DNA of 60,758 nt, from positions 1-60,758 of the forward strand of contig CAMBSL010000001.1 of NCBI GenBank assembly GCA_945870455.1, written 5' to 3'. Positions 16,039 to 27,161 of this stretch are shown here, piece by piece. Source of the DNA: Pirellula staleyi DSM 6068 (lineage in GTDB: Bacteria; Planctomycetota; Planctomycetia; Pirellulales; Pirellulaceae). Under the pieces are notes generated by a model. It was not told where the DNA came from, did no database searches, and worked only from the letters and a program-made list of their open reading frames with translations. How positions within the stretch are numbered: position 1 is the first letter of the stretch; every line of letters begins with the position of its first letter. The translations under genes and the position numbers were made by a program.

Positions 16039-18372
16039 TTAGGGAATGAAGTGAATGGAATCGATTTGAAAGCGATAGTCTTGCTGGGAATTTTCTCCAT
16101 GTTCGTCGATGGCAATCCCCAATTCATCCAGCGTCCATGGGAGCATCGCTTCCGTGACGGCACTTTCGATTGCAAACCGCTGTTGAGGCGAGGACTGAGT
16201 CACTAGATTAGCTTGAATCTGCTTCTTCGATGGGTTGGTAGTTAATTCAAAGCGATAGGGAGTTTCGGGGCGTAGGGAGTCATGCTGCACGACTGGGAAT
16301 CTGTGGACTTTTCCTTGCGCGGCCAGCACCAGCTCCACCTTTTCTGGACTTGAAATTCGAAGAGCGAGCGAGTGTTCGTCTAATGGCAAATCACTTTGAA
16401 AAAAGCCTATGATCATGGGGTTTCGCTGGTTGTCGCCGAAGGATTGGATGTGGAAGTCCACTGCGAAGGTGAAGGCTTTACACGTGTCCGTTGGATCGAC
16501 GGCGCGTACGTAACGACGGCGTTGATGGATCAGCTTCCTTGAGCTCTCGCCCGTAATCTTCAGGCACTTCGTCCGCTTATCCCAGCCGTAGGGAACGGTC
16601 GACGGATCCATGATGGCCGCTTCATCCGCGGGAGCTGCCTTGCGACCGATGCTTAGCATGTCAAAGTCGAAGTACCAACCGCGCGCCAGCGGATCCGAAT
16701 CGAATGGCTCGTCGAACGTCGAAACGGTCGACTTCGGTGTGTTCCAAGTTTGATTACTTAGCGAAGCGAGAAATGGATTCACTTCGATTCTATCAGGTTG
16801 GCCATACTTGGTATGTTCGCACCAAACCCAAACATATTCGTCGCTGGCAACAAGTGCTAACGGTAGATTGGACCACAAGGATGCCTTGGTTCCGTTGGGC
16901 CATCCCGGAGGCGTGTTCCATGGGTGATCCTCGACCCATGCTGCCATACCGACTTTGACAAACGCGTCATACTTGGCTGGATCGTTGCTCAACGAGCGCC
17001 AGCTTCGAATTTCAGCTCGTGCAGTCGAGTATCGGTTTCGGTCGCCCGGAAAGCCGTCTTTCGTTGCATAGGTGTGCGTCGTTCCGGGGGCATGACCAAA
17101 ATAGAATGTGTTTTCATGTCCATGAATGATCTCAGCGGGTGATTGAATTCCCTCCAGTACACCATCGAGGAAAGGAATGACTCCGCTCAGTGGCCCGTAG
17201 CTGTTGGAATCGGGGGACCATGCGAACGTCGTCATGATTTTGACTTCGGGAAACTCGGCTTGGATTGCTTGAATCCATTGCTTGCCACGGCGGCGTAGAA
17301 CCTCGGGTGCATCTTTACCCAGCGGAAAAGGAAGACCCTGTGGCCGGTCCGGTTCGAACTCAGGTGTTCCCGATTGCGTTCGCCAGCGATACTGACTGTA
17401 CTGTTCGGTATCCAACCAAAGACCTTTCAACTTGCCTAGTCGACATAGACGCGCTGCTAGGGCGGCGTTGTGCTGAATCGCTTCCCAGTCGTGATCATCC
17501 GCCAGGTTGGGTGATTGCAGTCCACGCGCTCCATCCACCATTCCAAAGATCAGGAAGTTGTCTGTTAGATTGCCGCGACGCATTCTCTGCAGATCGGCCA
17601 GAGTTTGTGCGACCGCCTCGTCGGGGATTTTGACGGTATTCCATAGCAACTCGTGAAGGAAGACGGGTCGCAGTGGCATTCCCAGTTTCGTCAGGCCGAG
17701 TGAATCGACCCACTTGTGTGACAATACGGCTGGGAGAACGATTCCATCGAACGGATAACTCGCGTTGAACTCAGGATGCTCGGCGATGAATTGCGGAGTA
17801 ATCGCTGTCCCAGCGCCATTGACCGTATAGAGACCTCCACCGATGAACTTTTTGTTGCGCAGTTCACGTGGCTGTGCCCAAAGTTCACCTGGCATTTCGT
17901 CAAACGCTTCGATGCGGATCCAGGCCAACTCGATCGAGCCCTCATCGAAACTTGGGTCGAGTCGGAATCGCGCGCGAGGAGCGAGCGTAGGAAGCCAAAC
18001 GCGATACTCGTGCCACTGTCCATCGTTCTCAATCACAAACGTGCGGCTGCGTTCTTCCGAAAAGGGTTGGCGAAAATAGATTTGCCCTACAGAGCCAGCT
18101 CGTGAAAGCATGCGAACGGTAATGCAAACCACCTTTCCGGCTGGGCAAGCCATCTGTGGACTCGTCAGGAACGGATCCGGGGCTTGCAACTCCATCGACA
18201 CTCCATTTGCACTATGCTGCAGGTTGCGTAGTTGTGGGTTCGGAGTCCAGCTATCCATTCCTTTGCTGAACTCCCAGAAACCGATTGTTTCGCCCCCGTG
18301 AAGACCTTCACCGACCAACATCCACATGAAATAGAGAATGCAGTAAAACCAAGAACGATCGAGGGTTGGCAT
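16039..18372 (-). CDS. Secreted multidomain hypothetical protein (N-terminal CBM-like module, probable TIM-barrel core)
   Basis: Long ORF with a signal-like N-terminus. The N-terminal module resembles the insert in the 45533 gene. Core motifs PFDGIVL and GLWLDTEQY. Confidence 0.7.
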   Translation of the reverse strand: MPTLDRSWFYCILYFMWMLVGEGLHGGETIGFWEFSKGMDSWTPNPQLRNLQHSANGVSMELQAPDPFLTSPQMACPAGKVVCITVRMLSRAGSVGQIYFRQPFSEERSRTFVIENDGQWHEYRVWLPTLAPRARFRLDPSFDEGSIELAWIRIEAFDEMPGELWAQPRELRNKKFIGGGLYTVNGAGTAITPQFIAEHPEFNASYPFDGIVLPAVLSHKWVDSLGLTKLGMPLRPVFLHELLWNTVKIPDEAVAQTLADLQRMRRGNLTDNFLIFGMVDGARGLQSPNLADDHDWEAIQHNAALAARLCRLGKLKGLWLDTEQYSQYRWRTQSGTPEFEPDRPQGLPFPLGKDAPEVLRRRGKQWIQAIQAEFPEVKIMTTFAWSPDSNSYGPLSGVIPFLDGVLEGIQSPAEIIHGHENTFYFGHAPGTTHTYATKDGFPGDRNRYSTARAEIRSWRSLSNDPAKYDAFVKVGMAAWVEDHPWNTPPGWPNGTKASLWSNLPLALVASDEYVWVWCEHTKYGQPDRIEVNPFLASLSNQTWNTPKSTVSTFDEPFDSDPLARGWYFDFDMLSIGRKAAPADEAAIMDPSTVPYGWDKRTKCLKITGESSRKLIHQRRRYVRAVDPTDTCKAFTFAVDFHIQSFGDNQRNPMIIGFFQSDLPLDEHSLALRISSPEKVELVLAAQGKVHRFPVVQHDSLRPETPYRFELTTNPSKKQIQANLVTQSSPQQRFAIESAVTEAMLPWTLDELGIAIDEHGENSQQDYRFQIDSIHFIP

Positions 18373-18560
18373 GGATGAAGCTCTTGGAGGAATCGAATTG
18401 CAATGGTACGTTAGATCACAACAGTATAACTCGGCAGCCGTTTTCAAGTTCGCGTAAAATTACAGTGGACGACCTCCGAAGGTGCCAAAGGCCGCGATCG
18501 CTACCGTGAACTTTTTCTCTCAGACCACTCACGCTTCACTTTCATCACCATGGCAACACG

Positions 18561-20160: not shown

Positions 20161-20797
20161 CTCGAGATCATGATTCCGCTGAACCGCTTTTGATTCCCGC
20201 GTTCAACGCCTGCTCAGTCACTCCCTGCTTCTCAGTCTCTCTCTCCCTTTTTCTCGCTCGCAGCGGCGACCGGTGCCACGACATACTCGCGGCCAGCGAA
20301 AACCTTGATCTGCAGTCCATCGCTGTGATCACGTTGGACGATGAGCAAAACAGACACAGGACGGTTCGTCATGTGTCATGAACGGAAAACGCGGTCGGGA
20401 AAAGAACCGACCCCTCTGCAAAGTCAAAATGATATCCGCGAAGAACCGTCCATAAGCAACGGTCGGTCGATTCAGGCCACTATCAGCTGCGGAAACAGCG
20501 AACTCCATGCGGTGTTGTTGATCAAGCCATTAAAACGGCAGTCCACGCGGGCGCTCCGGCGTGTAAAACCGGTGCGAGCTGGAAAGCGGCGCAATCGACA
20601 GTGAGACTGTTGTCTAATTGCAAAGTCTGGACGTATCTGTTGCCTCGAATAGCATGCCGAGGATGCAACCGGATCAATCGCAACCCGTGAGCTTGCCAAG
20701 ATGACATGCCCCCCTTCTTTGTCCTTCCTGAATTGGTATTTTCTCGGACAAAGCAAATTTGATACAAGCATGCGCTTCCTCTAACGATTAGGCTGGA

Positions 20798-21088
20798 ATG
20801 ACAATGGACAACGAAACGCTGAATTCCGACTCGTTTATTTTCTTCTGCCAATACCAAAAAAGCTTGCAATCGGCTTTGTCACTGACTAGGTCTGATAGCT
20901 ATTCCGTAGATACTCACACTCGCAATAGCTTTGATCGAGCCTGGATCAAGCTCTCTCCCTGCGAGAGATTTCGCTGGATGCAAAAGTTTCAGCTAGGTTA
21001 TGAAAAGGTCGCAATCGCCCAAAAAGATCAAATCGCGAGAATCTGCTCATCCGGTGCGAAACCTAGCGCAATTCACCATGCGGCTTAA
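20798..21088 (+). CDS. Hypothetical protein
   Basis: 96-aa ATG ORF convergent with the HEAT-like gene. No recognisable motif. Confidence 0.3.
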   Translation: MTMDNETLNSDSFIFFCQYQKSLQSALSLTRSDSYSVDTHTRNSFDRAWIKLSPCERFRWMQKFQLGYEKVAIAQKDQIARICSSGAKPSAIHHAA

Positions 21089-24000
21089 TGGCTCAAGCCA
21101 ACCTTGAAGTCGATGGCGCGTGACCCAAAAAACGCTTTCTCATTGATCCAAGACAACAGTGAATCTGCGTCCGTGGAATGGCAAAGCACAGCAAAATCGC
21201 TTAGATCGCTAGGTGTCAATCTAAGCTCGTGTCCAGTTCTCACGAGTAGTTGATCCGCCAATCGCCAAACGAGAAAACCATTCGGATCCACATCTTTCGT
21301 GCAGTTTCCAATTTCTTGCAATAACAAAGTCATTGCTCTTAACTGGAAGCCATCTACTTTATCTTCATTCTGGGTTGGAAACGCATCTTCAAAATCCATT
21401 GATTCAAGCAACGGCTGTATCGATTCAGCGATCTTTTTTGCCGTATCGTCAGGAACATCCAGTTTCACAGCTTCCAGTGCAGTCCTGAAGAACTCGAATG
21501 CTGTTACGCTTTTCGAGTTCATCACGGGCAAATCAGGGTACTCTGAATGTCCCCGAAACTGAAAACTTTCGCCAAATAAAGCGCTTCCGATAACAACCTT
21601 CGAATCTCCTCTACCTGGAAGTTGCAACGTGAGTTCGCGTTCATTGAAAACGTTTTCGGAAAGGTCGTCGGCAATGCCGCCCCAGGAGTATTTTTCAGTT
21701 TGATCATAGCGATGCTTCCTCCAGATTCTTGCTCTGGCGGAAAACACAGACCCATTCGATTTCACAAATGTTGCGTTACACTCTTCAATCGCCCCAACAA
21801 CGTGTGACCAAGGTTCGGGCCATCTGGATGTGGTCTGCTTCCACTGTTTATCGAGTTGTTTTAGCGTTCGTTCTAAAAGATTTCGTGTTGACCTCGGCAA
21901 CTCTCGTACTTCTAAAAACTGCTCAATTCGTCGTTTCGTATCATCATCTCCCAACGCTGCAAGTGCTCGCGACAAACGTAAAACGCCCGCGAAGTTCTCC
22001 GAGCGACTGTTGCAAATGGCAAGCAACCGGTCAACGTATCCGTTTGCCCAAGTACGTCGGCGTCTTTGTTGCAGAACATCCTTAAACGCTTTCCTAACGC
22101 TTGGTTCCCTATGGCTTTGAAATCCCATGGTAAGAATGACTTCATCTGGGTAGTTCTCATGCGGCAACCATTCAATCAGTTCGGCAGCGCGCTTCTCGTT
22201 TTCAACTTCGCCTGAGGCATTCCAAGTCCGATATAGCGAGTGGAGCAGTTTATGATCTTTGGTCGCAAGCGCTCGATAGGCCGAACGACGCACTTGGTAG
22301 GCAGCATCTTGAATAAACGGGAGGAAGCTTTCTGTTAGATTTTCTGTAACAACTCTCGAAGTCACCTCGCAAAGAGCAACCCTTCCTTCGACCATCCACC
22401 TACTCCACTTTTCTGATCTTGAGAGCTGAAGTAGCGATTCAGGAGAAACGTGGGCGAGCACAGATAGCAAGTCCGTATCGGTAGAGTACTCGTTGTTTAT
22501 CAGTTCGATTCGCGAACGCAACGCGAGGATGACATTCGAAGGTGTGCGGGGACCACTCCTTTTGATTGGCTTAATGAGTTGGTAGAAGACATCGTTAGGT
22601 GAAATAGCGAAGACTGATGCAACAGCCCCAGAGTAACGCCTGGGATCTTTTTCGTAGAGTAACCCCAACAGATAGGCTTGCCAGCCGCTGAGAGATTCAG
22701 GATTGCTTATTCGAAGTGTATTTGCGTTCGAGACTATCGAGAGTTTCGCCAAAACAAGTGTTTCAATCGCCTCGAATTGCCAATCGCGACGGATTATAAC
22801 CTCGATAGCGGCCCAACAAAGCGGAGAGTCCTGTTGGTTAACGAGCTCAATGATTTCTTTCTTCCAATCCTCAGCCATCTCGAAACGACCTGTTGCTATT
22901 GCTTGAATCGCGTCTACTTGCGTCGCTTGCCCAAGACTTAAGTCACGTGTGAAGCTCCTCAAGTGATGGCTTAACTCATTGGCGACATAACCATTCGAAG
23001 ACAGCCGACAAAAAACGGATGCCGCCGCCTGACGATTATGAATTGGGCGTCCAATATCTGTCGATGCAATTAATAATTCTACGACGTCCTTATCGCCAGC
23101 TTCTATGCGAGCTAGAGCGAGGTCGGCAATCGCATCGACTGTCGACAAGAGAACTTCGTTCTCATAAGTAAATCCGAAATTGAGGATCGCTTCGAATGCA
23201 TTCCTACTGCGACATGACTGAGTCAAGTCTTGCAATCCACGATTGCGAAAGAAATGGTCGCTATCTACATCATCACCAGGTTGCGAGGATTTAACTATGT
23301 TCCAAAGTCTATCAGGCAATTCCGGTAAGCCTACGCATGCGAACAATTCGGAAACCTCATGCGAAACGGAGCCGTTTGACTCGTCAAGGACGGCGGTTGC
23401 GACAAATGATTCCGTGGGTTGAAAACCCAGACAAAGCAAAGCTTCTAATGCCATTGACTTGAGCTTGCTATTTGTCGTGGTGTACTCACCCTGGAGGTTT
23501 GTGTCCTTCTCTGTCAGACCAATCAGTTGGCGCACAATGGCTTCATCATTTACCTGACGCCATCCCGCAAGATGTCTTGGCTTTACGAATTCGGAAAGTC
23601 GAGAAAGGTAGATGTAAGCCCAATGACCAGACTCTGCATTTTCCGACTTTTTCAACCACTGGAAATAGTCCAAAACAACGGACGCAGAATTGCAGCGAAA
23701 CCCATATTCGCCGGACATCCGCACGATTTTCTCGTGGTCCCTTAGTATGTCCCAAATTCGCTCATGCATTGGGTGATCGTCGTCGCATCTATCGACAGCA
23801 CGAGTAACGACAGCAACCGAAAGAGATGGGCCAAACGACCGTTCCGCCGCATCTTTTGCCAACGATTGGACTAGGTAAGACTCGGCGATGTCCATCCGTT
23901 GAGGACCGACAATTTCTTGAATTGCGATCCTAGCGAAATGCTCGTCAGCCCCATTTCGTACTTGAGTGGCAACTAGCGAGAGAATGCTCTCTTCTTCCTC

Positions 24001-24537
24001 ATACGTTAGACCCGTCGCAATTAGTGTGCTAGCTGCTGTTTCCCAAAGCTCTTTCTCGCTTAGGGCAATGCCCCACAATAGGACGTCAAGTGATTCCGTT
24101 CGGAAACCAATCTTTGAAACACACCAGAAATGCGATTCACTTGGATTCGTTCGAATTCTCGCTTCGAGACAAGATAGCAGGTCGGACCTCACCTTGACCA
24201 TTTGGTCGTAGGGAAACTGGTACACCCAGTCTCGAATGTTTTCGCGGAGGTAGTCTTGCTCGATAGGAAACCGATCAGGACTTTTTTCGTTACTATTCTT
24301 TAGTTCGACAAAAGGCATCAAGTTGTCATCGATCAACTTGGCGACCAATTCTGGTTTTTCATGGGTTGCACTGGCGGCGGCTCGCGTAAGCGAATTTGCA
24401 AAACTAATTGCAAACTCATGGCCTGTCTCTTCCCGAACACTGTACGCTTCTCCAAAAAGCGGAAGGATATCTTCGAGAGTTTTGGCAGCTTGAAGCTTAG
24501 CGACAAGACCAGCATTTATTGACTTGTTACCTGTCAT
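21085..24537 (-). CDS. Large HEAT/ARM-like helical-repeat protein (putative sensor of a defence cassette)
   Basis: About 1150 aa, helical, HEAT-like segments (FIQDAAYQVRRSAYRALA, HNRQAAASVF, HREPSVRKAF). ATG 24537 has GGAGA upstream and overlaps the upstream stop. Confidence 0.75.
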   Translation of the reverse strand: MTGNKSINAGLVAKLQAAKTLEDILPLFGEAYSVREETGHEFAISFANSLTRAAASATHEKPELVAKLIDDNLMPFVELKNSNEKSPDRFPIEQDYLRENIRDWVYQFPYDQMVKVRSDLLSCLEARIRTNPSESHFWCVSKIGFRTESLDVLLWGIALSEKELWETAASTLIATGLTYEEEESILSLVATQVRNGADEHFARIAIQEIVGPQRMDIAESYLVQSLAKDAAERSFGPSLSVAVVTRAVDRCDDDHPMHERIWDILRDHEKIVRMSGEYGFRCNSASVVLDYFQWLKKSENAESGHWAYIYLSRLSEFVKPRHLAGWRQVNDEAIVRQLIGLTEKDTNLQGEYTTTNSKLKSMALEALLCLGFQPTESFVATAVLDESNGSVSHEVSELFACVGLPELPDRLWNIVKSSQPGDDVDSDHFFRNRGLQDLTQSCRSRNAFEAILNFGFTYENEVLLSTVDAIADLALARIEAGDKDVVELLIASTDIGRPIHNRQAAASVFCRLSSNGYVANELSHHLRSFTRDLSLGQATQVDAIQAIATGRFEMAEDWKKEIIELVNQQDSPLCWAAIEVIIRRDWQFEAIETLVLAKLSIVSNANTLRISNPESLSGWQAYLLGLLYEKDPRRYSGAVASVFAISPNDVFYQLIKPIKRSGPRTPSNVILALRSRIELINNEYSTDTDLLSVLAHVSPESLLQLSRSEKWSRWMVEGRVALCEVTSRVVTENLTESFLPFIQDAAYQVRRSAYRALATKDHKLLHSLYRTWNASGEVENEKRAAELIEWLPHENYPDEVILTMGFQSHREPSVRKAFKDVLQQRRRRTWANGYVDRLLAICNSRSENFAGVLRLSRALAALGDDDTKRRIEQFLEVRELPRSTRNLLERTLKQLDKQWKQTTSRWPEPWSHVVGAIEECNATFVKSNGSVFSARARIWRKHRYDQTEKYSWGGIADDLSENVFNERELTLQLPGRGDSKVVIGSALFGESFQFRGHSEYPDLPVMNSKSVTAFEFFRTALEAVKLDVPDDTAKKIAESIQPLLESMDFEDAFPTQNEDKVDGFQLRAMTLLLQEIGNCTKDVDPNGFLVWRLADQLLVRTGHELRLTPSDLSDFAVLCHSTDADSLLSWINEKAFFGSRAIDFKVGLSH

Positions 24538-26437
24538 TCCAATTATCTCCTTTGGCAAAGCTATCTCGCAGCCAATCGTGTTTCCATTGCCAAATTAAGT
24601 TCTCTGTGTCGATGATTTCAAAAATTCCCGCCGATAAACCCTCATCAAAAAGTTGGCGATGATATACGTCTGGGCAGTGAATGGTCCGAAGCGGTACAAC
24701 CCAGTCGTTCAAATAGGTTTCTTGCAACGGATTTTTGCCTTTGTCCAACCGTTCGGCAACAGATCTAAATGCGCTTTTTGCCCAGTCTCGTTGACCGAGT
24801 CTTTGTTCAACCTTGTTGAAAAACCATTTCTTGTATTCGTTGGCCAGTGCTTCCAATGCGTCCTTTGCACCGTCGAGGAATGCATGTTTCTGTGCGTCGC
24901 TAAGCTGAGCGAAGAAACGCCAAATGATCGGGCGAGACAGCAACTTCCAACGAAGCGGATTAATGGGGGCAAGAGTTGATTGCTTAGGAACGGTTCGGCG
25001 GCTGTGGCCAATGCTTAAATGAGCTTTGAATCTGTTGGCGACAGCCGCGTCTCCCTGTAGGTTTGTGGAAAGTGCCTCTAACTCGTCGTGGTCAAAGTCG
25101 CCGACCGATATTCGCATAAGCGAGCATGCTGGCGAGAAGCCGCCACCACCTAGCCCCTCCAATTCTGCTTCCGTACGACACGATAGGACAATGCTCAGCG
25201 AATGCGTTCCGTCCGCTAGTGAAGGTGCATTGGCCGATTGGATAAGGCCCATCAAGCTTTGGCGTGCGTCAGATGACAGGGATTGGAAACCGCCTCGTTC
25301 ATCTATTCCATCAACGTAGACTGCAATTGTTGGCAAAAACGACGATACACCCCCTAGCCGCTCAAGGCATTGCCGGAGGTCATTACCATCAGGGTTGTAG
25401 TTTTGATTCCGCCATCGCTTGACGGCAGATTGGACGCTACTTCGTTCGAGGTCCGCAGCTTTCAGGATCAACGCAAATGTCGGAGGTTGTTTTGGGTCTC
25501 CAAGGTTGATCAAAGCAGCATCACTCATAGCAACAGACTTACCCACTCCACCATCTCCTTTGACGATCACCAACGGATGGCTCATAGTCGACAACGCAAT
25601 TTGAGAAGAAATGGAACGGGAGATCGTTTGTTTCAATTTTGTTTGTGGAAATTGAGTCTCATTATCTCTGAATGACAAGACTTCTCCTTTTTGGAGATCA
25701 GCCGAAACTTTTCCGTTCAGTTGATAGGGGCTTGGATACTGAACTAAGGCTTCGATCAGTTTCGTTCTGTTGAGCGATCTACTCCCAGGAGACGATGCAG
25801 TCTGTACCAGCAGTCCAATTACCTTTTGAATACCCGATTCGATTTCGTGGTGTAGCATGCCATATTGTTTACCAATACTTACGATGCGGCTATTCGCATC
25901 GTCTGGGCCAAGTTGACTGATAACAAGTCTTTGGAAAATTGGCCATAGTAGTGTGTAGGGAAGCTTCGTTAATACTTCCTCCGAAACGCCGTCGTGCAAA
26001 AGAGATTTGAACTCGGTGGCGCTCTTTGCTTTGTTCCAGTCGTCGGAGCCTGAATTGAGTTTTCGGTTTGTAGTCAGGTAAAGATCAACATCGTTTGCGT
26101 TCAAATCCCCGTCGCCGAGGCTCTTCTTGAACGCAATCAGAATGTCTCGAAGCTCGGTCGGACCCAACTCTGCACCAACGCTTGAGTATTTGTATTGGAT
26201 CAAGCGCGGTCGTCCATTGTCCGGATAAGCCACAGCATCCTGCCCCAATCGTTCTATTTCGAACACGGCGGTCGGATTGTTCTGGTCGTCCTCCACCAGA
26301 AAGAGCTTCAATGCATCATTGGCTGAAGCCAACAACTGAAAAAAGAAACCAGCAATTGAGTAGTGCCCCGATTCAATCAACGAGAAAAGCCCCGATAGTT
26401 CTTCGAAAAAGTGTGTCATGCAAAATTGCAACAGCAA
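24527..26437 (-). CDS. Cap4/DUF4297-like PD-(D/E)xK nuclease fused to a STAND/NACHT-like P-loop NTPase
   Basis: N-terminal SIAGFFFQ...E.LGQD...LIQYKYS...LTTNR, Walker A GDGGVGKS, Walker B VYVDGIDE, LSCR, terminal WKHDWLRDSF. Start uncertain (possibly TTG 26380). Confidence 0.72.
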   Translation of the reverse strand: MLLQFCMTHFFEELSGLFSLIESGHYSIAGFFFQLLASANDALKLFLVEDDQNNPTAVFEIERLGQDAVAYPDNGRPRLIQYKYSSVGAELGPTELRDILIAFKKSLGDGDLNANDVDLYLTTNRKLNSGSDDWNKAKSATEFKSLLHDGVSEEVLTKLPYTLLWPIFQRLVISQLGPDDANSRIVSIGKQYGMLHHEIESGIQKVIGLLVQTASSPGSRSLNRTKLIEALVQYPSPYQLNGKVSADLQKGEVLSFRDNETQFPQTKLKQTISRSISSQIALSTMSHPLVIVKGDGGVGKSVAMSDAALINLGDPKQPPTFALILKAADLERSSVQSAVKRWRNQNYNPDGNDLRQCLERLGGVSSFLPTIAVYVDGIDERGGFQSLSSDARQSLMGLIQSANAPSLADGTHSLSIVLSCRTEAELEGLGGGGFSPACSLMRISVGDFDHDELEALSTNLQGDAAVANRFKAHLSIGHSRRTVPKQSTLAPINPLRWKLLSRPIIWRFFAQLSDAQKHAFLDGAKDALEALANEYKKWFFNKVEQRLGQRDWAKSAFRSVAERLDKGKNPLQETYLNDWVVPLRTIHCPDVYHRQLFDEGLSAGIFEIIDTENLIWQWKHDWLRDSFAKGDNWNDR

Positions 26438-26598
26438 TCATTGCTGTTGCGTCATGATACCAAATCCCATTCCATTAGTCAGTGATTCCTCGTAAGAAAG
26501 GATTTCGCATTTGTTGCTAGCCAAGCAGCATATCGATAATCCAAGGTCAACGATCGTGCTTGTCACCAATGACCGAACTAAGTGCGGTCACTACAAAC

Positions 26599-26645
26599 CG
26601 CACCGGTCACCCAAACGTCACCCAAACGTCACCCAAACCGGTGCG
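26599..26645. repeat. (GTCACCCAAAC)x3 flanked by inverted CGCACCGG/CCGGTGCG
   Basis: Read directly. Confidence 0.85.
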
Positions 26646-26689
26646 ATTATCCGAGTACCGTATTGCTCTTCACCGAGACAGCGCGCACA

Positions 26690-27161
26690 GGAGGGCGTGT
26701 CCTGTGCGCTACGTGCATCTCTACTACGACGCGGGTCAGACATTGGGGTCAGCACAGCAAGATACTGAACAGCGTGCCCGTCGAAGCCCGCAATATTGAT
26801 CAGGCCACTTCTGCGTGGATTACCAACCTGAAACAGCGGCATGCTTGAAGACACATTAGTCATCTGGGGCGGGGAATTCGGCCGCGCGCCTGTATCCGAA
26901 GGGGGCGACGGACGCGACCACAATCCCTTTGGCTACACGATTTGGATGGCCGGCGGCGGGATCAAGGGCAGCATGGCTTATGGTGCCACCGACGAGTTCG
27001 GCTTCAAAGCTGTCGAGAACCGCGTCAGTGTCCACGAACTTCATGCAACTATCCTGCATCAGCTGGGAATCGATCACGAAATGATTACCAATCGATATAA
27101 TGGCCGCGACTTCCGCCTCACGGACCTGCATGGCAAAGTGGTTCAAGCGGTGCTGGCGTGA
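26690..27161 (+). pseudogene. DUF1501 3' remnant, frameshifted
   Basis: [27 protein letters not shown] and [20 protein letters not shown] lie in different frames. The 5' two-thirds is absent. Confidence 0.85.

What the first reader, a model, noticed from the sequence alone, without database searches (positions are those of the whole stretch)
21085..26437. Candidate novel anti-phage system: nuclease-STAND NTPase split from a giant HEAT-like partner
Seen in sequence: two coupled genes (11-nt overlap, GGAGA before ATG 24537), visibly AT-richer than their neighbours and flanked by gene remnants. Gene 1 has GFxxQ...E..xD...QxK, the pattern of Cap4/DUF4297-type endonuclease effectors. It then has Walker A GDGGVGKS and Walker B VYVDGIDE, and it ends right after WKHDWLRDSF, which resembles the FxHxxxxEYF winged-helix motif of NACHT/STAND proteins. 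Established: Avs/bNACHT proteins carry effector, STAND and repeat sensor in one chain. Inference: here the sensor is a separate protein of about 1150 aa with an additional C-terminal domain, making a two-component NLR-like system.
Basis: partly seen in the sequence, partly recalled or inferred. Interest (0 to 1): 0.78.

Follow-up and report, generated by a model that had tools for sequence, protein, structure and literature searches.

The report
Two-chain bacterial NLR: switch plus sensor
Two coupled genes, one encoding a predicted DNA-cutting domain fused to an NLR-type ATP switch with no sensor and one encoding a separate 1,150-residue repeat protein, recur together in planctomycete bacteria and likely form an untested anti-phage immune receptor built from two chains instead of one.

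Summary
Gene 1 (630 aa) is predicted as a Cap4/DUF4297-type nuclease plus a STAND switch ending at the winged helix. Its nuclease and Walker A/B residues are invariant down to about 20% identity. Gene 2 (1,150 aa) is a HEAT solenoid, a PilZ-like barrel and an optional helical tail. The split is real. All 12 loci holding both genes break at the same point, in all three relative frames, and contigs from three other studies show no indel in either gene. Gene 2 heads an unnamed family (370 clusters at E≤1e-30). Of 147 new top hits, 113 are stand-alone; 9 are fused to other STAND-like NTPases or a HEPN-like domain. That modularity mirrors the Avs7/Dsr1 sensor. No Pfam, PADLOC or NCBIfam model names the pair. 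Best reading (0.6): a two-chain Avs-like anti-phage receptor. Binding, trigger and defence are inferred, not shown. The complex could not be predicted, and only 2 of 10 loci adjoin known defence genes. It is a new variant of a known kind.

The parts
24527..26419 (-). Gene 1, 630 aa from ATG 26419 (probable true start TTG 26380): nuclease-STAND with no sensor
25727..26380 (-). Cap4/DUF4297-type nuclease domain (residues 14-231); conserved E56, D61, Q75, K77
   Evidence: VIA-align: LmuA 9hr5 Z 14.8 rmsd 3.6 over 201; HerA-DUF 9c1m Z 14.7; Cap4 6wam Z 13.9; Hachiman 8zue Z 13.0; invariance
25100..25726 (-). STAND nucleotide-binding domain (residues about 232-440): Walker A at 25535-25558, Walker B at 25298-25321, R415
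   Evidence: residues 232-630 align to NLRC4 96-499, Z 16.8 rmsd 4.6 over 326; NPHP3_N at E<=0.1 in 11 of 11 members of A1, best 3.9e-6
24530..25099 (-). Helical domain 1 and winged-helix domain (residues about 441-630); the chain ends here
   Evidence: domain borders inferred from the model
24527..24552 (-). Coupled junction: AAGGAGA (24546-24552) inside gene 1, ATG 24537, gene 1 stop TAA 24527-24529
   Evidence: no indel in contigs from three other studies
21085..24537 (-). Gene 2, 1,150 aa: predicted sensor/regulatory subunit
21823..24537 (-). HEAT-type alpha-solenoid (residues 1-905)
   Evidence: model pLDDT 82; Foldseek CAND1/karyopherin-like, generic; HEAT_2 in 10 of 13 members
21535..21795 (-). 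Beta-barrel (residues about 915-1001), PilZ-like, ending G-x-x-x-Y-P; the usual C-terminus of the family
   Evidence: VIA-align to PA0012 8u0i Z 8.7 rmsd 2.8, 80 of 85 residues (the PilZ label for PA0012 is recalled); columns
21127..21510 (-). Optional helical tail (residues about 1010-1137)
   Evidence: absent in L022, L023, L049 and in 107 of 113 stand-alone representatives
26428..26450 (-). Perfect 10-bp hairpin just upstream of gene 1, behind a weak promoter-like site (26454-26482); possible regulatory element, not tested
   Evidence: site counts are at chance level
20349..26707 (.). Approximate extent of the cassette: contigs of another study match this stretch and run into unrelated DNA at both ends
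   Evidence: tables 7 and 8 (runs X2, X3)

Best explanation
The two genes likely encode one anti-phage receptor in two chains: a nuclease-STAND switch that has no sensor of its own, and a separate HEAT-solenoid/beta-barrel protein predicted to dock on it as sensor and brake. Shown by sequence and models: the domain anatomy, intact catalytic and NTP-binding motifs, translational coupling signals, co-inheritance and a fixed break at the end of the winged helix. Inferred by analogy with Avs3 and Avs7: coupled translation gives a 1:1 complex in which gene 2 holds the switch in an ADP-bound off state. A conserved phage protein made during infection would bind the solenoid, release the switch, allow ADP-to-ATP exchange and oligomerisation, and bring the Cap4-type domains together to cut DNA, killing or arresting the infected cell. 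The trigger is unknown; a core virion or replication protein is the best guess from the other Avs families.
For: Gene 1's top Foldseek hit is Avs3 8dgc (E 1e-12); its halves match Cap4/LmuA nucleases and the NLRC4 NBD-to-WHD region. Q75-x-K77 is invariant; in Lee et al. 2026, QxK mutants abolished trigger-induced toxicity in Se2Avs7, EcAvs8, CkAvs11, MsAvs12, KpAvs17, SeAvs18 and KpAvs20, partly in AxAvs14, but not in EcAvs19. All 12 loci with both genes have the same order and break, with a purine-rich ribosome-binding site before gene 2. Pairwise distances of the two proteins track each other (Spearman 0.91 over 78 non-independent pairs) and the trees differ only at short or open branches. 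Gene 2's family occurs in one chain behind a NACHT module (P0130; Pfam AAA_16 6.6e-8, NACHT 2e-5) and behind three other STAND-like N-termini judged by eye (P0121, P0125, P0115), and behind a HEPN-like domain with R-x4-H in 5 of 5. That is the sensor position, and the same STAND/Sir2/HEPN sharing is reported for the Avs7/Dsr1 sensor. Distribution is patchy: 7 of 401 family genomes have full gene 1, 0 of 12 of the same genus. GC is below the flanks here and in 5 of 5 other loci. L023 follows a type I R-M operon; L022 follows a DrmMI-like methylase and McrBC-like genes.
Against: No test of function exists. Only 2 of 10 genome loci adjoin recognised defence genes (p about 0.01 against Lee's 1.53% null, short of their 1e-4 bar; loci not independent; neighbours only partly scanned). 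The window's own neighbours are metabolic genes. Gene 2 is more conserved than gene 1 in 52 of 78 pairs, not the fast-changing pattern reported for the bNACHT01 C-terminus. The winged-helix His, which contacts ADP in SeAvs7, is lost in half the rows. The neighbours of the 113 stand-alone relatives could not be seen, so it is unknown whether they all sit behind a STAND gene. In Avs8 the second gene is dispensable. Three of the 12 loci are frameshifted (L003, L006, L050).
Confidence: 0.6

Rival explanations
1. Guard or toxin-antitoxin mode: gene 2 is mainly an inhibitor. The sensor-less nuclease-STAND would be active by default and fire when phage shut-off, proteolysis or a phage inhibitor removes gene 2, with no need for a bound phage ligand.
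For: In SeAvs7 the sensor's C-lobe holds both NTPase and Cap4 off. Loss of the repeat domain auto-activates many NLRs (recalled). A non-covalent brake makes release by loss possible. The WHD His is missing in 9 of 18 rows. One orphan copy of gene 1, next to transposon genes with no partner found, is truncated to its first 285 profile positions (L024).
Against: The toxin-like gene comes first. A 1,000-residue conserved solenoid is large for a labile antitoxin. The same solenoid is covalently fused to HEPN-like or STAND domains in 9 relatives, where release by loss cannot work.
Confidence: 0.17
2. Two separable activities in one operon: gene 1 is a self-sufficient short STAND defence protein (like short bNACHT proteins, or Avs8A without Avs8B), and gene 2 is an accessory scaffold or independent sensor that does not bind it.
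For: Short NACHT proteins without repeats defend alone (bNACHT01). Avs8B is dispensable. The ESM Atlas lists other 625-770 aa STAND clusters near gene 1. Binding was not shown here.
Against: Gene 1 has nothing after the winged helix, not even a short C-terminal domain. Every intact gene 1 seen with downstream DNA was followed by gene 2. The two trees agree.
Confidence: 0.12
3. The pair is a two-chain STAND system whose input is not phage: a plasmid or other mobile element, a competitor's effector or a cellular stress, triggering DNA-destroying cell death in aggregate-forming bacteria.
For: The named members are Planctomycetota and Chloroflexota; planctomycetes and chloroflexi are listed as rich in such conflict systems. 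The optional tail recurs in a protein of a type VI secretion-like locus (E 7.7e-8; locus type judged by eye). 8 of 10 loci lack known anti-phage neighbours.
Against: Every tested Cap4/Mrr-STAND family in the papers read responds to phage proteins. Two loci sit in restriction-modification clusters.
Confidence: 0.09
4. A single-chain Avs gene broken by a frameshift or an assembly error, or re-joined by recoding.
For: Three distant loci (L049, L050, L051) have the two genes in frame across one stop codon, so read-through is not excluded there.
Against: The other nine loci are out of frame in two different ways: overlaps of 11, 8, 11, 11, 8, a 1-nt gap, and 4, 4, 4. Contigs from three other studies cross this junction with no indel. 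No fused form of this gene-1 family was found among the longer proteins (weak) or the 147 new partner hits.
Confidence: 0.02

Closest known systems
Avs3 (SeAvs3, PDB 8dgc) and Avs7 (SeAvs7; Lee et al. 2026, PMC13581612)
   Same: N-terminal Cap4-type nuclease with QxK, then a STAND NBD-HD1-WHD; a helical-repeat region of about 1,000 residues follows (SeAvs7 sensor 561-1523). Avs3 is the top Foldseek hit for gene 1.
   Different: The repeat region is a separate gene. It is HEAT-type and ends in a beta-barrel, whereas the Avs7 sensor is described as TPR and ends in a conserved helix. No family-level match: best Avs hits were Avs2 E 0.006 and Avs4 E 0.054, limited to the P-loop region.
Avs7/Dsr1 shared sensor family (Lee et al. 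2026)
   Same: One sensor module is used with STAND, Sir2 or HEPN partners, and 'split proteins' are mentioned in the methods. Gene 2's family shows the same plug-in behaviour.
   Different: 0 of 42 gene-2 family proteins hit any NCBIfam model at E<=1e-3, and that library holds Dsr1 NF041818. Here stand-alone is the majority state. Remote homology is not excluded.
Bacterial NACHT proteins (Kibby et al., bioRxiv 10.1101/2022.07.19.500537), including short SNaCT forms
   Same: NACHT-like Walker B and WHD motif; HEAT repeats are a listed sensor type; short forms without repeats exist.
   Different: bNACHT01 is a single gene with its own C-terminal domain, and the tested genes were only rarely in poorly conserved operons. 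Here the operon is constant. Pfam NACHT scores stay below cut-off.
Avs8 / PD-lambda-4 (PMC12236752)
   Same: Two-gene operon with a nuclease-STAND as first gene.
   Different: Avs8A binds capsid protein itself and Avs8B is dispensable. Here gene 1 has no sensor region and gene 2 is the larger protein.
Lamassu LmuA, HerA-DUF4297, Hachiman HamA, CBASS Cap4
   Same: The nuclease fold (Z 13-15; one homologue hits PADLOC LmuA at 1.7e-5), and control by a separate subunit in the first three (Hachiman from the abstract listing; the others recalled).
   Different: Their partners are SMC, HerA or helicase ATPases, or a nucleotide signal. None has a STAND switch on the nuclease or a HEAT partner.

Membership tests
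Avs / antiviral STAND (generic) | STAND NTPase module NBD-HD1-WHD with Walker A/B | tested here: met
Avs / antiviral STAND (generic) | N-terminal effector domain with intact active site | tested here: met
   Cap4/DUF4297 fold Z 13-15; D61, Q75, K77 invariant in 19 of 19 rows, E56 in 18 of 18; activity not assayed
Avs / antiviral STAND (generic) | C-terminal repeat sensor in the same polypeptide | tested here: not met
   gene 1 ends at the WHD in 12 of 12 loci
Avs / antiviral STAND (generic) | Activation by a phage protein, oligomerisation, anti-phage defence | not testable with these tools
Avs / antiviral STAND (generic) | Clade enriched next to known defence genes (Lee et al.: binomial P<=1e-4) | tested here: inconclusive
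   2 of 10 loci, P about 0.01; small, non-independent and partly scanned sample
Named Avs1-5 and other PADLOC/NCBIfam systems | Profile match at family level | tested here: not met
   no hit near cut-off for either protein or their homologues
Avs7/Dsr1 sensor family | Homology of the repeat module to the Dsr1/Avs7 sensor | tested here: inconclusive
   no Dsr1 profile hit in 42 proteins; no Avs7 or Dsr chain in the fold lists, but these lists exclude nothing and I had no Avs7 sequence; the paper's tables 5 and 8 were not among the files I could read
Avs6-24 and the 684 sensor clusters of Lee et al. 2026 | Presence of these proteins in the paper's tables | tested here: inconclusive
   0 hits for three accessions and three genus names in 7 held files; the large tables were unreadable. 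STANDs with under 400 aa after the NTPase were excluded from the sensor analysis by design.
bNACHT | Pfam NACHT PF05729 above cut-off | tested here: not met
   best E 6e-4, 20.1 bits against a 26.7 cut-off
bNACHT | WHD F-x-H-x-x-x-x-E-Y/F motif (recalled) | tested here: inconclusive
   W-x-H in 9 of 18 rows; Y, R or Q in the rest
PilZ (c-di-GMP receptor), barrel of gene 2 | Beta-barrel fold | tested here: inconclusive
   single match, Z 8.7, 80 of 85 residues, from the whole-chain model; the domain was not folded alone
PilZ (c-di-GMP receptor), barrel of gene 2 | Conserved RxxxR and D/NxSxxG binding motifs (recalled) | tested here: not met
   D/NxSxxG in 5 of 92; RxxxR somewhere nearby in 40 of 92 but in no conserved column

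The most novel reading that the evidence does not exclude
Gene 2 defines a large, unnamed family of free-standing immune sensors (hundreds of sequence clusters in at least two phyla) that plug non-covalently onto a sensor-less nuclease-STAND switch. This would be a bacterial NLR whose recognition and signalling halves are separate, exchangeable subunits. Surveys of STAND sensors that look only at the same chain would miss this class.
Probability: 0.4. Interest if true: 0.85.

Novelty: new variant of a known kind. Interest (0 to 1): 0.68.

Why it matters
The characterised antiviral STAND receptors in the papers read keep sensor and switch in one chain. The largest survey dropped STANDs with under 400 residues after the NTPase from its sensor analysis, so two-chain forms are a blind spot. 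If the pair works as inferred, it shows that NLR-type inhibition and activation can run across a non-covalent interface. It also lets the brake and the trigger be separated cleanly by expressing each chain alone, and it adds a new sensor family whose phage target can be found with existing co-expression screens. Swappable sensor and switch subunits would also be useful for engineering protein-triggered switches in bacteria.

Tried and rejected
Complex prediction of gene 1 (236-630) with gene 2 (1-600) was not available: no verdict on binding. Pfam, PADLOC and NCBIfam scans of the two window proteins gave nothing near cut-off. PDB sequence searches gave only P-loop and generic HEAT matches. tblastn of plasmids with P0001, P0002 and P0159 found no match. 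Viral contigs gave none with A3 or P0126. The ESM Atlas had no usable hit for gene 2. The 'longer' search for fused gene-1 forms found none, which is weak evidence. In the phylum-wide search with the broad gene-2 profile, 112 of 401 genomes matched; only G000 is full-length and the other 111 are weak partial matches (under 40 bits), nearly all to the HEAT repeats, so I dropped them; the 609 count at E<=1e-3 may include such matches, so I quote 370 at E<=1e-30. In one search, G556 was dropped as a helicase false positive, and G414 and G467 are partial. Promoter and terminator counts are at chance level. The Dsr1 search in G000 rang in no control genome, so it only shows that the model is in the library. 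Fold searches of gene 2 listed no Avs or Dsr chain. A c-di-GMP-binding role for the barrel was rejected for lack of motifs. Profile comparison of four other fused N-termini with gene 1 was negative; P0130 was weak, E 0.0012, probability 19.5%. Ten paper searches found no description of this pair; the library lacks most subscription papers, and one search matched only unrelated text.


Full report
Observation. The window is contig C1 of a 5.8-Mb, 92.5% complete genome. Its named homologues come from Rubripirellula, Novipirellula, Stieleria and Neorhodopirellula, and near-identical DNA is held by lake-water metagenomes, so it is most likely a freshwater planctomycete (inference). Gene 1 runs 26419-24527 (630 aa) and gene 2 runs 24537-21085 (1,150 aa), both on the minus strand. 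They overlap by 11 nt, with AAGGAGA before the gene 2 start. The pair is 47.8% GC against 51.6% for the genome, in the lowest 0.8% of 895 windows. C-terminal remnants of a DUF1501 gene and a peptidase S9 gene flank it. Neither protein reaches any Pfam, PADLOC or NCBIfam cut-off.

Gene 1. An AlphaFold2 model on an 11-row alignment has pLDDT 78 and pTM 0.73. Foldseek ranks Avs3 first (E 1e-12, TM 0.47) and Avs4 next. In VIA-align, residues 14-231 match LmuA (Z 14.8, rmsd 3.6, 201 aligned), HerA-DUF (14.7), Cap4 (13.9) and Hachiman (13.0). Residues 232-630 match NLRC4 96-499 (Z 16.8, rmsd 4.6, 326 aligned). The chain is therefore nuclease, NBD, HD1 and winged helix, and stops there. Across 19 rows, down to 20% identity, D61, Q75, K77, the Walker A glycines and lysine, D370/D373/E374, R415 and P497 are invariant. 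The winged-helix His is kept in 9 of 18 rows.

Gene 2. The model (13 rows, pLDDT 82, pTM 0.69) is a helical solenoid to residue 905, a beta domain at about 915-1000 and a helical tail. The solenoid gives only generic HEAT matches (CAND1, importins). The beta domain matches PA0012 (Z 8.7, rmsd 2.8, 80 of 85 residues), which I recall as a PilZ domain, but the c-di-GMP motifs are not conserved. The tail is missing in L022, L023 and L049.

Is the split real? Word searches returned 10 other gene-1 proteins (432-652 aa) and 12 gene-2 proteins (895-1,184 aa). A search of longer proteins found none, which is weak evidence. Twelve loci hold both genes: the window, L002, L003, L005, L006, L020, L021, L022, L023, L049, L050 and L051. 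All have gene 1 ending at the winged helix, directly followed by gene 2. Eight are complete and intact; L051 is cut by a contig end; L003, L006 and L050 carry frameshifts that may be decay or assembly errors. Nine junctions are out of frame in two ways (overlaps 11, 8, 11, 11, 8, a 1-nt gap, 4, 4, 4). The three most distant are in frame across a stop, each with an ATG and a purine-rich site. Contigs from three studies other than the possible source cross this window's junction. One spans both genes, and the only two indels listed lie outside them. A frameshifted pseudogene or assembly error is thus excluded for this window. Trees of 13 pairs agree except at short or open branches (two pairs were matched by equal contig length rather than seen, and the gene-2 tree is the quick one).

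Distribution and context. With profile A1, 10 of 401 family genomes matched, 7 of them over the full gene and 0 of 12 in the same genus. With A2, 11 of 401 matched. With A4, 3 of 390 other genomes of the class matched, in two other families. The phylum-wide samples gave only G000 as a full-length match. Of 10 genome loci, L023 follows a type I R-M operon, and L022 follows a DrmMI-like methylase and McrBC-like genes. L020 sits behind an integrase with an AHH/Imm11 pair and a TIR-WD40 gene nearby, and L002 has a transposase 3.5 kb away. The rest showed no recognised defence neighbours (one search scanned 40 of the 106 ORFs listed plus 5 window ORFs). Two of 10 gives P about 0.01 against the null of Lee et al., short of their threshold. 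In one other study the contigs match 20349-26707 and then run into unrelated DNA on both sides, which fits a mobile cassette of about 6.4 kb.

The partner family. A profile of gene 2 against 1.84 billion representatives found 609 clusters at E<=1e-3 and 370 at E<=1e-30; only the best 150 were listed. Of the 147 new ones, 113 are stand-alone by length (107 without the tail), 24 are fragments and 10 are at least 140 residues longer. Five of the ten carry a related N-terminal domain with R-x4-H (Pfam HEPN_Swt1 E 2e-4 in one, below cut-off). One carries a NACHT-like module (P0130). Three carry STAND-like N-termini that I judged by eye (P0121, P0125, P0115). One has only insertions. None carries this gene-1 family. 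Two named members are Chloroflexota, including Reticulibacter mediterranei; the other 18 of 20 looked up gave no organism. On a quick FastTree of 105 rows, the confirmed pairs fall on both sides of the midpoint root, and the fused forms are scattered beside stand-alone sisters. This suggests that fusions are repeated and secondary, though no root or clade test was run. The genomic neighbours of the stand-alone members could not be seen, which is the main gap.

Mechanism. From Lee et al. 2026 (PMC13581612; abstract, sections 5, 6, 10, 11, 15, 17 and 44, passages, a term search of 7 supplements and part 1 of one): the SeAvs7 sensor holds the NTPase and Cap4 off until capsid protein binds, then ATP exchange and tetramerisation switch on DNA cleavage; the same sensor family also serves Dsr1 and a HEPN protein. 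I infer the same logic here across a non-covalent interface (0.6). The rivals are release by loss of the partner (0.17), separable activities (0.12), a non-phage input (0.09) and artefact (0.02). Binding could not be predicted. Gene 2 is more conserved than gene 1 in 52 of 78 pairs; this fits a sensor of a conserved fold or a structural brake, and does not show an arms race.

Comparison and novelty. It works like Avs3/Avs7 but fails their single-chain feature and every profile test. It is not Avs8, whose first gene senses alone (PMC12236752, passages). It is unlike bNACHT genes, which are rarely in conserved operons (bioRxiv 2022.07.19.500537, passages). The passages read from Kaur 2020 and 2021 describe other multi-gene STAND systems but not this one (PMC7159879; PMC8195603). 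None of 42 partner proteins hits the Dsr1 model; remote homology to the Avs7 sensor stays open, and Lee et al. mention split proteins in that family. Their large tables, which I could not read, may bear on novelty. Ten paper searches found no description (listed under Tried and rejected). Two unchecked notes from this scan describe a similar nuclease-STAND plus HEAT pair in another genome; sequence look-ups showed no look-alike, so I cannot say whether it is the same family, and I do not count them as support.

Verdict. A real, conserved, unnamed two-gene module; a new variant of the antiviral STAND kind; interest 0.68. The most novel reading, a family of free-standing plug-in NLR sensors, has probability about 0.4 and interest 0.85 if true.

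Noticed in passing
L037:343-1842 (G671:C4): The optional helical tail of gene 2 (profile 1048-1160) recurs at the C-terminus of an unrelated 499-aa protein with no Pfam hit (E 7.7e-8). Its neighbours look by eye like type VI secretion genes. It may be a mobile adaptor domain.
   Followed up: partly
P0074, P0105, P0108, P0110, P0155: A family of about 1,300-aa single-chain proteins: a small N-terminal domain, a HEPN-like domain with R-x4-H, then the gene-2 solenoid and barrel, with no STAND. A candidate one-gene RNase defence system.
   Followed up: partly
window 26604-26638: About three tandem copies of an 11-nt unit upstream of gene 1. One copy is missing in contigs of runs X2 and X10, and many unrelated contigs match the 26617-26707 stretch, so it is probably a dispersed repeat at the cassette edge.
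   Followed up: partly
window 26428-26450: Perfect 10-bp hairpin 9 nt before ATG 26419, followed by a short T run; possible operator or attenuator.
   Followed up: no
window 20798-21088 (+): A 96-aa ORF convergent on gene 2 with a 4-nt overlap, no Pfam hit. It lies inside the stretch shared with other strains.
   Followed up: partly
L024:4113-5276 (G414:C2): Truncated gene-1 homologue (nuclease through Walker A only) between Tn3 transposase/resolvase, ParA and integrase genes; no partner in the 15 kb fetched.
   Followed up: partly
L020:15053-18571: A 1,172-aa TIR + WD40 + DUF4365 protein 1.6 kb from the pair, on an integrase-bearing stretch with an AHH nuclease/Imm11 pair.
   Followed up: no
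L051:4187-5806 and L023:12685-13347: Unannotated genes directly upstream of gene 1 on the same strand (540 and 220 aa), with no Pfam hit and no significant PADLOC hit; possible further defence genes.
   Followed up: partly
ESM Atlas rows: Several other clusters of 625-770 aa STAND proteins (Pseudomonadota, Bacillota, one SMEK_N/NPHP3_N cluster of 309) resemble gene 1 by features. Whether they too have a separate repeat partner was not checked.
   Followed up: no
window 16039-18447 (-): An 802-aa ORF with no Pfam hit among carbohydrate-type and sulfatase genes.
   Followed up: no
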